From: Escherichia coli
GTDB lineage: Bacteria > Pseudomonadota > Gammaproteobacteria > Enterobacterales > Enterobacteriaceae
NCBI RefSeq assembly: GCF_044324785.1
Contig: NZ_CP172128.1
Length of the DNA: 64,000 bases
Strand: one strand, 5' to 3'
Shown: positions 26,201-29,200 of the stretch, in pieces
Layout: each line of letters opens with the position of its first letter
Numbering within the stretch: the stretch's first letter is position 1
Made by a program: the position numbers

Positions 26201-29200
26201 TTTCTCCGCCGGCGCTTCCCCGTACGGAAGTCCGGCATCTCATTCACTAACTATGGAGATTATGCCATGAGACCATCAATTATCTTCGCAACCGCCGAGT
26301 ATGTAAAGCGTCTGCGTGAAGAGTGCCGGCGGGAGAACAAACCCCTGCACCGCCATACCCGCTTCAGACGCCAGGAACTGGCACCGGATGAGATTAACCC
26401 GGACGTCCTGGCGATGGGCGGTCATATCGCCAGACGCTGCAGTGAGCGGAAGCGGGTGCGTATCCCCGCCATGAAAGTCAGCGAATGGGGCCACCTGCTC
26501 CGCGCGCTTGAAATTGAACGGGTCTGCCACTGATTACCCCTTGCCGTCTGCCTGTGCAGGCGGCAGGATACGTTCAGACATCTCACCAGGAGGAACCGTG
26601 AGTAAGAAGAAAAACACCACAACGCCCACGCCGCATGATGCTGCGTTCCGGTCGTTCCTGGCGAATCCCGACGTCGCCAGAGATTTTCTGGAACTGCATC
26701 TTCCGGCGGAGTACCGGCAGTTGTGCGACCTGTCCACGCTGAAGCTGGAACCCGCCACCTTTGTTGAGCCGGACCTGCATCAGTACGCCAGCGATATCCT
26801 CTGGAGTGTGAAAACCACCGGGGGTGAAGACGGCTATGTTTATACGCTCATCGAGCACCAGAGCACCGAAAATCTGTACATGCCTTTCCGCATGATACGT
26901 TACAGTGTGGCGGCGATGCAGAGACATCTGGAGCAGCACAAAACATTGCCACTGGTGATTCCGGTGCTGTTCTATCATGGTGAGCGCAGCCCGTACCCGT
27001 ACAGCATGAACTGGCTGGACTGTTTTGAGGATCCGGCGCTTGCGGCTAAAATATACACAAAGCCGTTTCCGCTGGTTGATATCACTGTCGTTGATGACAA
27101 TGAAATCATGAACCATCGCCGGATGGCCGCACTGACGCTGCTGATGAAGCATATCCGCCATCGTGACATGATGGAGCTGCTGGACAAACTCCCGCAGGTC
27201 ATGGTGGAAATTTCAGACGAGCAGGTGCGTGTTCTGATTCATTACATCGTTAACGCAGGGGACTCTGTATCACCGGAATTTATGCGGGCGCTGGCTGAGC
27301 GTCTGCCGCAGCATGAGGATAAACTGATGACTATTGCCGAACGTCTTGAGCAGCAAGGAATACAGAAAGGAATACAGCAGGGAATACAGCAGGGAATACA
27401 GCAGGGAATACAGCAGGGAATACAGCAGGGAATACAGAAAGGCCGCATGGAGGAGAAGCAGGATATTGCGCGTCAGCTTCAGAAAACGGGAATGCCATCT
27501 GCACAAATCTGTCAGATCACCGGACTTTCCGAAGCTGAACTGAAGAACATCACTCACTGATGAGAACCACAAAGCCCGGCAAAATGCCGGGTTTTTTTGT
27601 CAGCAGGAGCAGAGCAAACAGCATGACGATTGCAGAACGTCTTGAGCAAAAAGGTCGCCAGGAAGGAGCGCTTGAAAAAGCCCTGGCCATTGCGTGCCAG
27701 CTTCAGAAAATGGGGATGACGCCGGAGCAGATTAAGCAGGCTACCGGACTGTCCGAAGCTGAACTGAAAAAAATCATTCACTGATGAGAGCATCACAGCC
27801 CGGCAGAATGCCGGGCTTTTTTGCCAGCAGGGGCAGAGCAGTATGACTATTGCAGAACGTCTTATACAGAAAGGTTTCGACGAGGGTTTTAAACAAGGTT
27901 TTAAACAAGGGGCTCTTGAAGTGGCGCGGGAAATAGCCTGCCGGCTGCGGGATATAGGCTGGCCGCCGGAACGGATTCAGGAGGTCACGGGACTTTCCGG
28001 TGAAGAACTGAAAAAGCTGTTTCCTGATGAGCAGTAGCCTGGCATTCAGCCAGGCTGTGAATCACCGCTCACACATCCTCTGCCGTTTCCCCCAGTTCAT
28101 TTTCCAGTCGCCTGATGATATCTGCCTTACGCATCCCCTGCATGTGAGGCAGCAGGTCACGGACTGAAAGAGCCTGGGTGGTCCTCCAGACGGTGACGTC
28201 CACCTGTTCCGCATTTTCCCAGGCGTGCCATGTTCTCTGCGTCACGCCAAATTCTCTGGCCGCTTTTTCGCGTGACCAGAGCATGCTTTTTCGCCAGATT
28301 CGCAGTTCCCAGCCGGTCATAAAACACCTTTGAAAAAGTGAAAAAACTTCACTTTATTTTATCATCATAATCATCAAATCAGCGCGATAAATAAGTGTAA
28401 AAAAATGAAGAAATTTCACTTTTTTTTGCTTGTAAATGTCGTGCGGTTTTCTCTGTTTTCACCTGTGCGGGAGTGGTGTGCCAGTGACCACCACATGCCA
28501 TTGTTGTGCCGTCGTTTTTCTTCAGTCGCGCCGTATGCGGCGCTCCCTGCACACCTTACGGTGTGTAAGGCCACTGCGCCTGATGGCGCAGCTGTCTCTG
28601 CCTGTCTGCCGCCGCACTGCGGCCTGTTCTCCGCAGACGGACTTTCCGGGGGTACATACATGACCACATCCCGTTTCAGTCGTCCAGGGGAGAGATGTAC
28701 CAGCCACAAAACTTTTTGCCGCAGGCGTCAAAAACTTTTGCGTCTGCCCCCGGACAACTGCCCCGTGACGTGGTGAGCGTCCCCCGTCGGAAAGGTCCAC
28801 TGCGGGGAAATCCCCGAAGACCCGGACGGCAGAAGGAGCTTCGCTCCTCCGGGAAATGACCTGGCTGACCCGGCAGTCGTGACGATGAGGAGACAATGTG
28901 ATGAATCAGACTTTACCCACTGCTGACCTGAATACTGCCGGCACGACAGATGTTATTCCGTCTGTGGCTATCGACCGCATCATCGCGCAGCGTAACGAAG
29001 GTATTGCACTGTTCATGCAGGCGATGGAATGCCTGGCGACAGCGCGCAAGATTCTGCTCGATGCGTCAGGTGATATTTTTCTTTACGGGTTTGAAGACTG
29101 CGTGACTGATTCCGTTCGTCGCATAGATAAACCGGAAGAAGCGAAAAGGAATATCACCCGTCTTGCCGACCGGAAAATCTGGGAGCGCCTGATGACAGAT

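What the first reader, a model, noticed from the sequence alone, without database searches (positions are those of the whole stretch)
26598..28060. Rpn-family nuclease followed by two terminator-separated stand-alone copies of its own C-terminal module, in the leading region
The 320-aa ORF resembles E. coli Rpn/YhgA-like PD-(D/E)xK nucleases. Its C-terminal module begins at an internal Met (MTIAERLEQQG). Directly downstream are two small genes that start with the same motif (MTIAERLEQKG and MTIAERLIQKG), carry different linkers and divergent C-terminal helices, and each follows its own hairpin terminator. Rpn proteins have been reported as toxic nucleases neutralised by small proteins made from the C-terminal part of the same gene. 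A tandem array of free-standing, diversified copies of that module, in the early-entering leading region alongside ardA/klcA/psiB/ssb, suggests they could buffer the plasmid's own Rpn or act as decoys against recipient Rpn-type defence. I do not recall this arrangement being described.
Basis: partly seen in the sequence, partly recalled or inferred. Interest (0 to 1): 0.85.

Follow-up and report, generated by a model that had tools for sequence, protein, structure and literature searches.

The report
Plasmid Rpn nuclease with spare tails
This is a plasmid copy of the already described Rpn toxic-nuclease/internal-antitoxin system, followed by two free-standing copies of its tail module; the kind is known, but here the spare tails match the nuclease tails of sibling plasmids, not the nuclease next to them.

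Summary
ORF 26598-27560 is a bona fide Rpn/YhgA-like nuclease (Pfam PF04754 E=3e-78; TIGR01784 above cut-off). All RpnA residues that abolish activity when mutated are conserved, and an internal Met244 with a GAGGA ribosome-binding site aligns exactly with the proven RpnA internal start. Two small ORFs (27623-27784, 27843-28037) are homologues of that tail, and each follows a strong hairpin plus U-run.

The claim of novelty is not supported. Zhong et al. (PNAS 2023) described RpnL/RpnS gene-within-gene toxin-antitoxins. They also described free-standing downstream "RpnSs" copies on chromosomes and plasmids, 4-aa repeat hypervariation, and loss or fusion of RpnSs.

What I add: in about 2,040 IncI-complex plasmids the locus uses three tail types (Q, R, F) in four layouts.
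- N-R|F: about 1,590 records.
- N-Q|F: about 400 records.
- N-Q|R|F: about 20 records, including the window.
- N-F: at least 16 records, for example R621a.

Both spare tails in the window therefore occur as nuclease tails elsewhere. Repeat counts vary independently between modules, and the F module is under purifying selection.

K-12 chromosomal Rpn tails are only 33-52% identical, so a decoy role against chromosomal Rpn is not supported. Cross-immunity against sibling-plasmid Rpn variants remains an untested possibility.

The parts
26598..27560 (+). rpnL: full-length Rpn (YhgA-like) nuclease, 320 aa, with a Q-type tail
   Evidence: Pfam PF04754 E=3.3e-78. TIGR01784 scores 191 bits against a cut-off of 52. 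It is 44-53% identical to K-12 RpnA-E. Residues D14, D66, E86, Q88 and R98 align with RpnA D11, D63, E82, Q84 and R94 (Kingston 2017).
27327..27560 (+). Predicted internal RpnS, the Q7 tail of 77 aa, translated from Met244. This is the presumed cognate antitoxin.
   Evidence: Met244 aligns with RpnA M244, the experimentally proven internal start. A GAGGA ribosome-binding site lies at 27315-27319, 7 nt upstream. The module hits the RpnA-S crystal chain 7TH0 with E=1e-3. Translation was not tested here.
27357..27440 (+). Seven tandem 12-nt repeats encoding GIQK/GIQQ in helix 1 of the tail
   Evidence: Family D2, with 12-nt spacing. The repeat number differs among relatives: 3 in L002, 5 in L014 and 7 in L013. 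The insertion point is the same as in the K-12 tails.
27574..27598 (+). Intrinsic-terminator-like hairpin (GCCCGGC/GCCGGG) plus U7, between rpnL and Ss1
   Evidence: dG is -16.9 kcal/mol against -4.9 +/- 2.1 for shuffles. The hairpin is conserved in all loci, while the U-run varies from 4 to 7.
27623..27784 (+). Ss1: stand-alone RpnSs, R-type, 53 aa, with one RQEG unit
   Evidence: It matches the C-terminal end of TIGR01784 with E=6.6e-9 and 7TH0 over its full length with E=4.6e-4. It is 94% identical to the fused tail of RpnL in L003, and residues 1-44 are identical.
27797..27822 (+). Second terminator-like hairpin plus U6, between Ss1 and Ss2
   Evidence: Found by the terminator scan. dG is -20.8 kcal/mol against -7.8 +/- 2.5 for shuffles.
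27843..28037 (+). Ss2: stand-alone RpnSs, F-type, 64 aa, with three GF(D/K)(E/Q) units
   Evidence: It matches the C-terminal end of TIGR01784 with E=5.2e-6. The best PDB fold match of its AF2 model is 7TH0 (prob 0.91, TM 0.70). Purifying selection is seen in the core: pS 0.08-0.17 against pN 0-0.05. The same tail is fused to RpnL in R621a.
28036..28056 (.). Hairpin between the convergent Ss2 and HTH genes, with no U-run
   Evidence: Together with a short neighbouring stem it gives dG -18.9 kcal/mol against -6.7 for shuffles. It is conserved in L016 and L017.
25180..25700 (-). Context: ssi/Frpo-like single-strand promoter element upstream of the gene run that leads to rpn
   Evidence: Three related copies are present in the window. 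The minus strand folds as a long ssDNA hairpin with z=-9.8. Its function here is inferred from Wen et al. 2025.

Best explanation
The locus is a plasmid-borne member of the RpnL/RpnS 'gene-within-gene' toxin-antitoxin (antiphage) family, followed by two RpnSs paralogues.

Shown or strongly supported:
- rpnL encodes an Rpn nuclease whose activity-critical residues are intact.
- Its C-terminal three-helix module (Q-type, 7 four-residue repeats) has an internal start at Met244 with its own ribosome-binding site, as in RpnA.
- Ss1 (R-type) and Ss2 (F-type) are homologous tail modules. Each sits behind a copy of the same terminator-leader unit.

Shown by comparison: in the IncI-complex leading region this locus behaves as an array of tail cassettes. 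Q, R and F modules each occur fused to the nuclease in some plasmids and free-standing in others. The layouts are N-R|F, N-Q|F, N-Q|R|F and N-F. Repeat numbers drift independently in every module. The window carries the fullest and rarest layout.

Inferred: recombination at the conserved 'ATGACnATTGCnGAACGTCTT' module start, at the module 3' end, and in the terminator-leader unit moves tails on and off the nuclease. This both generates the stand-alone copies and consumes them.

Inferred from the published specificity rule: the internally initiated Q7 RpnS is the cognate inhibitor of the cis nuclease. Ss1 and Ss2 have different sequences and helix-1 lengths, so they are not. As proteins they would pair only with R- or F-tailed RpnL carrying matching repeat numbers, and such nucleases exist on sibling plasmids. 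Their actual role in the cell is unknown.
For: Family identity: profiles; alignment with K-12 RpnA-E, critical residues and M244; RpnA-S structure 7TH0.

Published system and its rules: PMC10400941.

Homology of the three modules and the repeated terminator-leader unit.

Layouts:
- N-R|F in L003, L004, L006 and L018 (pESBL). The N|R junction query matched about 1,589 records.
- N-Q|F in L002 and L005.
- N-Q|R|F in the window, L013, L014 and L015, about 20 records with one colinear match.
- N-F in R621a and Shigella sonnei plasmids, at least 16 records with a single-piece chimeric junction match.

Independent repeat variation.

Selection: F core pairs show 5-6 synonymous and 0 nonsynonymous differences. 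Stand-alone R versus fused R shows 5-7 synonymous and 3 nonsynonymous differences.

Diversity is concentrated in the rpn 3' half and tails, while the backbone is 96-99.7% identical.
Against: - No expression data exist for Ss1 or Ss2. Each lies behind a strong terminator, no sigma-70-like promoter was found upstream, and the AGGAG/AGGGG motifs sit 11-13 nt from the ATG.
- The purifying-selection signal could partly come from periods when a module was fused to the nuclease.
- The spacer patterns do not fit a simple nested-deletion series. The spacer after Q in the window equals the spacer after fused R in L003. The direction of events is therefore unresolved, and gene conversion must be invoked.
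- The repeat-number specificity rule was demonstrated only for RpnC.
- Layout counts are estimates from junction BLAST queries, which cross-match between homologous modules.
Confidence: 0.8

Rival explanations
1. Orphan-antitoxin (cross-immunity or anti-defence) array. Ss1 and Ss2 would be made early after transfer and would neutralise R- or F-tailed RpnL nucleases of resident sibling plasmids. This would protect the incoming DNA, or allow displacement of a competitor without post-segregational killing.
For: - Ss1 is identical over residues 1-44 to the RpnL tail of L003 (R1). The R2 stand-alone copies in L013 and L014 match the R2 tail of L004.
- Ss2 (F3) has the same repeat number as the F3 tail of RpnL in R621a.
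- Stand-alone copies systematically mismatch the cis tail. This also holds for pESI L007 (6 versus 5 repeats) and for K-12 rpnE/ypaA, which differ by one repeat.
- All genes here run towards oriT and lie downstream of an ssi/Frpo-like element.
- Orphan antitoxins are reported as enriched in leading regions (PMC11541004).
- 25% of complete E. coli genomes carry such a plasmid, so encounters between siblings are plausible.
Against: - There is no functional or expression evidence.
- Terminators precede each small ORF.
- The stand-alone R copy is rare, in about 1% of plasmids.
- Ss2 and the R621a tail differ at 7 positions, so cross-binding is not assured.
- Entry exclusion and incompatibility limit co-residence of sibling plasmids (my own knowledge, not tested here).
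- Shared ancestry alone explains the sequence matches.
Confidence: 0.2
2. Non-functional by-products. The small ORFs would be leftovers of tandem duplication or gene conversion, possibly promoted by the nuclease itself, with no role as proteins.
For: - Terminators lie upstream, ribosome-binding sites are weak and no promoter was found.
- ypaA is annotated as a pseudogene in K-12.
- Stand-alone copies are lost in N-F plasmids such as R621a without obvious harm.
- An IS66 element disrupts the F module in L014.
Against: - The F module is intact and under purifying selection in nearly all of the ~2,000 plasmids.
- R stand-alone copies in two Inc groups differ only by synonymous changes and in-frame repeats.
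- Zhong et al. detected the YpaA/RpnESs protein.
Confidence: 0.15
3. The small proteins modulate the cis RpnL-RpnS complex. They could form mixed dimers that tune the activation threshold, or act as helix-turn-helix-like regulators of the operon.
For: - RpnS is a three-helix, HTH-like bundle that dimerises through helix 1.
- The Foldseek list for the Ss2 model contains many HTH domains after 7TH0.
- The F stand-alone gene accompanies both Q- and R-tailed nucleases.
Against: - The published data show strict tail specificity.
- F repeat number does not co-vary with the cis tail: Q7 occurs with F3 and F6, and Q'5 with F1 and F3.
- No DNA-binding evidence exists.
Confidence: 0.1

Closest known systems
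E. coli RpnL/RpnS gene-within-gene toxin-antitoxin systems, including plasmid RpnP2 (Zhong et al., PNAS 2023, PMC10400941)
   Same: - Same nuclease family.
- Same internal Met244 start, and the same MTIAERL tail start.
- Same three-helix tail.
- 4-aa repeats inserted at the same point in helix 1, with strain-to-strain variation in number.
- Plasmid-borne examples are already reported.
   Different: - The tails here (Q, R, F) are only 33-52% identical to the K-12 tails.
- I could not determine whether this locus is RpnP2 itself, because the paper's supplement is not held.
- Zhong et al. do not mention a leading-region position (0 hits for 'conjugat').
rpnE-ypaA (rpnESs) and rpnC-rpnCSs: a stand-alone RpnS copy downstream of rpn (same paper)
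   Same: A free-standing tail copy lies directly downstream on the same strand. It differs from the cis tail in repeat number: YpaA has one more unit than the RpnE tail. Loss by deletion or by fusion to the N-domain is described.
   Different: - The window has two stand-alone copies of two different tail types, and neither is the closest relative of the cis tail. In K-12 the downstream copy clusters with its own upstream tail.
- Each copy here carries a repeated terminator-leader unit.
Orphan toxin-tip/immunity arrays downstream of cdiA and rhs genes (my own knowledge; analogy only)
   Same: Displaced C-terminal specificity modules are kept in tandem behind the main gene. Exchange occurs by recombination at a conserved junction motif, and the stored modules match active modules in other strains.
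   Different: Here the stored module is itself the antitoxin-like domain rather than a toxin tip plus a separate immunity gene. No evidence of function in competition exists, and the systems share no homology.
Leading-region anti-defence islands and orphan antitoxins (Samuel et al., Nature 2024, PMC11541004)
   Same: The position is within the first few kb to enter the recipient. The locus shares a strand with ardA, psiB, ssb and a klcA-like gene, and lies downstream of an ssDNA-promoter-like element.
   Different: Rpn is not mentioned in that paper. Rpn is a defence-type toxin rather than a known anti-defence factor, and early expression of rpn or its Ss genes has not been shown.

Membership tests
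Rpn / YhgA-like nuclease (PF04754, TIGR01784) | Significant full-length match to the family profiles | tested here: met
   PF04754 matches residues 11-207 with E=3.3e-78. TIGR01784 scores 191.4 bits against a cut-off of 52.1.
Rpn / YhgA-like nuclease (PF04754, TIGR01784) | Conservation of the residues whose mutation abolishes RpnA activity (D11, D63, E82, Q84) | tested here: met
   D14, D66, E86 and Q88 (and R98) are aligned and invariant across RpnA-E. The residue list comes from PMC5350276.
Rpn / YhgA-like nuclease (PF04754, TIGR01784) | DNA endonuclease activity and toxicity | not testable with these tools
   This needs a biochemical or genetic assay.
RpnL/RpnS gene-within-gene toxin-antitoxin | In-frame internal start with its own ribosome-binding site at the start of the C-terminal domain | tested here: met
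   ATG 27327 (Met244) aligns with RpnA M244, and GAGGA lies 7 nt upstream. Translation itself was not tested.
RpnL/RpnS gene-within-gene toxin-antitoxin | Tail with the RpnS three-helix fold and variable 4-aa repeats 8-20 residues after the Met | tested here: met
   Repeats start at residue 11 in all three modules. 7TH0 is hit by the Q and R modules. Repeat number varies among plasmids.
RpnL/RpnS gene-within-gene toxin-antitoxin | The small protein binds and inhibits the long protein | not testable with these tools
   This needs co-expression or SEC experiments. No multimer prediction tool was available.
RpnSs (stand-alone RpnS copy, ypaA-like) | Separate ORF downstream of rpn, homologous to the rpn tail and starting at the tail's Met | tested here: met
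   Ss1 and Ss2 match the C-terminal end of TIGR01784 with E=6.6e-9 and 5.2e-6. Against YpaA they give E=3e-11 and 8e-10 in a small database. The Ss2 model's top fold hit is 7TH0.
RpnSs (stand-alone RpnS copy, ypaA-like) | Annotated DUF4351 (PF14261) domain, which applies in some species | tested here: not met
   Pfam scans of Ss1 and Ss2 give no PF14261 hit. F-type clusters carry a precomputed PF27070.1 hit, a family absent from the scanned library. DUF4351 is not a required feature according to Zhong et al.
RpnSs (stand-alone RpnS copy, ypaA-like) | The protein is actually made | not testable with these tools
   Only indirect support is available, from purifying selection on the F core.
Leading-region (early-expressed) plasmid gene | Lies between oriT and the ardA/psiB/ssb block, and is transcribed towards oriT | tested here: met
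   Annotation of the identical plasmid places nikA about 2.4 kb downstream, and all neighbours lie on the + strand.
Leading-region (early-expressed) plasmid gene | Induced from a single-strand promoter in new transconjugants | tested here: inconclusive
   An ssi/Frpo-like element lies upstream. pESBL, which was profiled by Wen et al., carries the locus. The paper's text does not say whether rpn is induced, and its supplements are not held.
Anti-defence decoy against recipient chromosomal Rpn | Close match of the small proteins to chromosomal Rpn tails | tested here: not met
   Identity to the K-12 RpnA-E and YpaA tails is only 33-52%. Only K-12 was tested.

The most novel reading that the evidence does not exclude
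The tail array would be a collection of orphan Rpn antitoxins placed in the leading region. Each free-standing module (R, F) would neutralise the Rpn nuclease variant carried by sibling IncI/K/B/O plasmids. A plasmid that has switched its own nuclease to a new tail would thus keep immunity to the older tails. That could help it enter or displace relatives without being cut or killed. The hypervariable 4-aa repeats would then mark a plasmid-versus-plasmid arms race, not only a phage-driven one.
Probability: 0.18. Interest if true: 0.7.

Novelty: new member of a known kind. Interest (0 to 1): 0.33.

Why it matters
The role of the stand-alone RpnSs copies was left open in the paper that defined the system. 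This plasmid family offers a natural test set. About a quarter of complete E. coli genomes carry the locus, and the same three tails occur both fused and free, with many repeat numbers. Predictions about tail specificity, cassette switching and cross-immunity between plasmids can therefore be tested with existing isolates. One of these is pESBL, for which early-conjugation RNA-seq already exists. If the small proteins act in trans, the Rpn system would join the factors that shape competition among resistance plasmids. If they do not, the finding is an ordinary instance of a described system.

Tried and rejected
- I first concluded that the F-type tail is never fused to the nuclease, because the top 120 protein clusters were all 106 aa or shorter. 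A chimeric N-end/F-start DNA query refuted this. It matched in one piece in at least 16 plasmids, including R621a. Clustering at 90% or 50% identity hides tail variants under N-domain representatives, so cannot answer that question.
- Junction BLAST queries for Q|R and Q|F cross-matched the homologous R|F junctions and were joined non-colinearly. Only single-piece, full-length matches were counted, so the layout numbers are estimates.
- A decoy role against chromosomal Rpn found no close match to the K-12 tails.
- A simple nested-deletion origin (Q-R-F to R-F to F) is contradicted by the spacer identities.
- The TGATGA stop/start overlaps and the open leader frame through the terminators are present in 10 of 13 junctions. 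Chance and relatedness could explain this, so it is kept only as a note.
- PADLOC has no Rpn model, and its only hit is spurious.
- NCBIfam gave nothing for the neighbouring genes.
- Rfam gave nothing in 17-31 kb.
- The supplements of both key papers are not held. The identity of RpnP2 and the early expression of rpn in pESBL could therefore not be checked.
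Full report
**1. What is in the sequence**

The region holds one large ORF and two small ones on the + strand.
- The large ORF starts at GTG 26598, behind AGGAGG, and ends at 27560 (320 aa). 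Its last 77 residues begin at Met244 (nt 27327) with MTIAERLEQQG. They contain seven GIQK/GIQQ units encoded by 12-nt tandem repeats.
- Ss1 (27623-27784, 53 aa) starts MTIAERLEQKG.
- Ss2 (27843-28037, 64 aa) starts MTIAERLIQKG.

The three modules align end to end. Pairwise identities are 45% (Q-R), 54% (R-F) and 37% (Q-F), with E-values of 1e-12 to 1e-15. At DNA level the module 3' end, a hairpin and a leader form a 152-nt unit that is repeated at 80% identity.

Both hairpins are strong and are followed by U7 and U6. Their energies are -16.9 and -20.8 kcal/mol, against about -5 and -8 for shuffles.

**2. What the large ORF is**

- It matches Pfam Transposase_31/YhgA-like (PF04754) with E=3e-78.
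- It matches the NCBIfam Rpn subfamily TIGR01784 well above its cut-off.
- It is 44-53% identical to the five K-12 paralogues RpnA-E, which I fetched from NC_000913.3.
- Kingston et al. found that mutating RpnA residues D11, D63, E82 or Q84 abolishes activity (PMC5350276). These residues are all conserved here as D14, D66, E86 and Q88, as is R94 (here R98).
- Met244 aligns exactly with RpnA M244, the experimentally verified internal translation start. A GAGGA motif lies 7 nt upstream of it.

**3. What is already known**

Zhong et al. (PNAS 2023, PMC10400941) reported the following.
- rpn genes are gene-within-gene toxin-antitoxin systems. RpnL is a toxic nuclease. RpnS, translated from the internal start, binds and blocks it.
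- RpnS is a three-helix bundle that dimerises through helix 1 (PDB 7TH0).
- Four-residue repeats in helix 1 vary in number between strains and set specificity. One extra repeat abolishes inhibition of RpnC.
- A plasmid system, RpnP2, protects against T-even phages.
- RpnS can also be encoded 'as a separate gene' downstream (ypaA = rpnESs, rpnCSs), on chromosomes and plasmids.
- Such copies can be lost by deletion or by fusion to the rpn N-domain.

The function of RpnSs copies was left open. I found no later paper on them in the held library. Neither Zhong et al. nor the leading-region survey of Samuel et al. links Rpn to leading regions.

**4. Are the small ORFs RpnS-type modules?**

- Ss1 and Ss2 hit the C-terminal end of TIGR01784 (E=7e-9 and 5e-6).
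- Both hit YpaA and the K-12 tails.
- Ss1 and the Q tail hit the RpnA-S crystal chain 7TH0 by sequence. Ss2 does not.
- An AF2 model of Ss2 has moderate confidence (pLDDT 70.7). It shows helices at 3-10, 20-38, 42-49 and 53-59, with the repeat segment poorly defined. 7TH0 is its top match among 350,542 PDB chains (prob 0.91, TM 0.70, E 0.54).
- Pfam DUF4351 is not hit.

**5. Context**

- The window is 100% identical to the IncK2/Z plasmid pLH10-b-1-A.
- The gene order is: klcA-like, ssb, parB-like, psiB, psiA, ardA, two small ORFs, rpn, Ss1, Ss2, a convergent HTH gene, DUF4942, a mobC-like gene, then nikA (annotated mobA) and the relaxase.
- All but two of these genes point towards oriT, as expected for leading-region genes read from the transferred strand.
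- Three ssi/Frpo-like elements are present. The one at 25.2-25.7 kb folds as a long single-strand hairpin (z=-9.8) and precedes the gene run that ends in rpn.
- Whether rpn is induced on entry is unknown. pESBL, profiled by Wen et al., carries the locus, but the accessible text does not report on it.

**6. Comparative anatomy (the new part)**

About 2,041 PLSDB plasmids carry the locus; 1,903 of them are typed conjugative and the sampled loci are IncI-complex. So do 1,378 of 5,426 complete E. coli genomes. From 14 plasmid loci read in detail there are three tail types.
- Q: GIQQ repeats, with a divergent Q' subtype.
- R: RQEG/RMEG repeats.
- F: FDEG/FKQG repeats.

They occur in four layouts.

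| Layout | Example loci | Estimated records |
|---|---|---|
| N-R\|F | L003, L004, L006, pESBL (L018) | about 1,589 |
| N-Q\|F | L002, L005 | about 400, by subtraction |
| N-Q\|R\|F | window, L013, L014, L015 (two Inc groups) | about 20 single-piece matches |
| N-F, no stand-alone copy | R621a, Shigella sonnei plasmids | at least 16 |

Both spare tails of the window are thus the working nuclease tail in sibling plasmids.
- Ss1 is identical over residues 1-44 to the R1 tail of L003.
- Ss2 (F3) has the same number of repeats as the F3 tail of R621a.

Repeat numbers vary independently in every module: Q 3-7, R 1-5, F 0-6. They do not co-vary between the cis tail and the stand-alone copies.

The backbone around the locus is 96-99.7% identical. 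The rpn 3' half and the tails are mosaic (83% identity in L005 and L015).

Selection:
- The F core shows pS 0.08-0.17 against pN 0-0.05, with several pairs at 5-6 synonymous and 0 nonsynonymous differences.
- Stand-alone R differs from fused R by 5-7 synonymous and 3 nonsynonymous changes.

Spacer identities show that the layouts are not a simple nested-deletion series. Gene conversion or reciprocal exchange between units must also occur.

**7. How it most likely works**

- Shown by homology: the locus encodes an RpnL nuclease with an internal RpnS.
- Inferred from the published rule: the Q7 RpnS is the cognate inhibitor. Ss1 and Ss2 differ in sequence and in helix-1 length by 6 and 4 repeats, so they are not cognate.
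- Inferred from the comparative series: the array is generated and consumed by recombination at the conserved module start, the module 3' end and the terminator-leader unit. This swaps the nuclease's specificity tail.

What the free proteins do is not established. Three possibilities remain.
- They may act in trans on R- or F-tailed RpnL of sibling plasmids (cross-immunity or anti-addiction). I rate this about 0.2.
- They may be largely by-products (about 0.15).
- They may modulate the cis complex (about 0.1).

A decoy role against chromosomal Rpn is not supported for K-12, whose tails are only 33-52% identical.

**8. Verdict**

It belongs to a described kind: RpnL/RpnS plus RpnSs. The window shows the rare two-spare-tail variant.

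Three things add modest value.
- The leading-region placement.
- The three-tail, four-layout series.
- The match of the spare tails to sibling-plasmid nucleases.

Together these give a testable hypothesis for the unexplained RpnSs genes. Interest is moderate to low (0.33). Novelty: new member of a known kind.

Noticed in passing
window 18837-19334, 25191-25686, 28525-28773: Three related ssi/Frpo-like elements lie in the leading region, with 83-96% identity between copies. The minus strand of 25180-25700 folds as a long single-strand DNA hairpin with z=-9.8.
   Followed up: partly
window 17215-17533 and 24171-24490: A second repeat pair of 92-94% identity lies immediately upstream of the klcA-like gene (17551-17976) and of ardA (24508-25008). 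This fits the 'class 2' single-strand promoters that Wen et al. 2025 describe upstream of klcA and ardA.
   Followed up: no
window 27558-27625 and 27782-27845: TGATGA stop/start overlaps follow rpn and Ss1. The short frame that starts there runs through the terminator hairpin. It either joins Ss1 in frame or ends in an ATGA overlap with the Ss2 start. The pattern is present in 10 of 13 junctions across plasmids. It may reflect translational coupling or ribosome-dependent read-through, but the evidence is weak.
   Followed up: partly
window 27099-27101 (RpnL residue N168): The plasmid RpnL has Asn where all five K-12 paralogues have Asp (RpnA D165). The D165A change makes RpnA hyperactive.
   Followed up: no
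window 28069-28320 (- strand): An 83-aa helix-turn-helix gene converges on Ss2 and is conserved at that spot in all complete loci examined, including N-F plasmids. It is one of only two minus-strand genes in this stretch (the other is the mobC-like gene next to oriT), so it could be expressed only after second-strand synthesis.
   Followed up: no
L003, L004, L016, L017 (each at 1811-2200 or 1436-1825) and L018:4115-4504: Many sibling plasmids carry an extra ~390-nt ORF that overlaps the rpn start by 4 nt. It is sometimes mis-annotated as 'CbiX'. It is absent from the window.
   Followed up: no
L005 and L015, 3' half of the rpn N-domain: The segment corresponding to window 26961-27326 is only 83% identical, while the flanks are 96-99% identical. 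This recombinant patch travels with the divergent Q' tail.
   Followed up: partly
L014:2426-2510: An IS66-family element has inserted into the F-type stand-alone module of plasmid pHB42-5, truncating it after 9 residues.
   Followed up: no
window 27025-27052: A sigma-70-like site (TTGAGG-16-TAAAAT) lies inside rpn, about 275 nt upstream of the internal start. It is a candidate for the internal promoter reported for rpn genes, but it was not tested.
   Followed up: no
L007:3428-3920 (pESI-like Salmonella Infantis megaplasmid): A more distant version of the locus (about 80% identity) has a stand-alone copy of the same tail type as the cis tail but with one repeat fewer (6 versus 5). This mirrors K-12 rpnE/ypaA.
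   Followed up: partly
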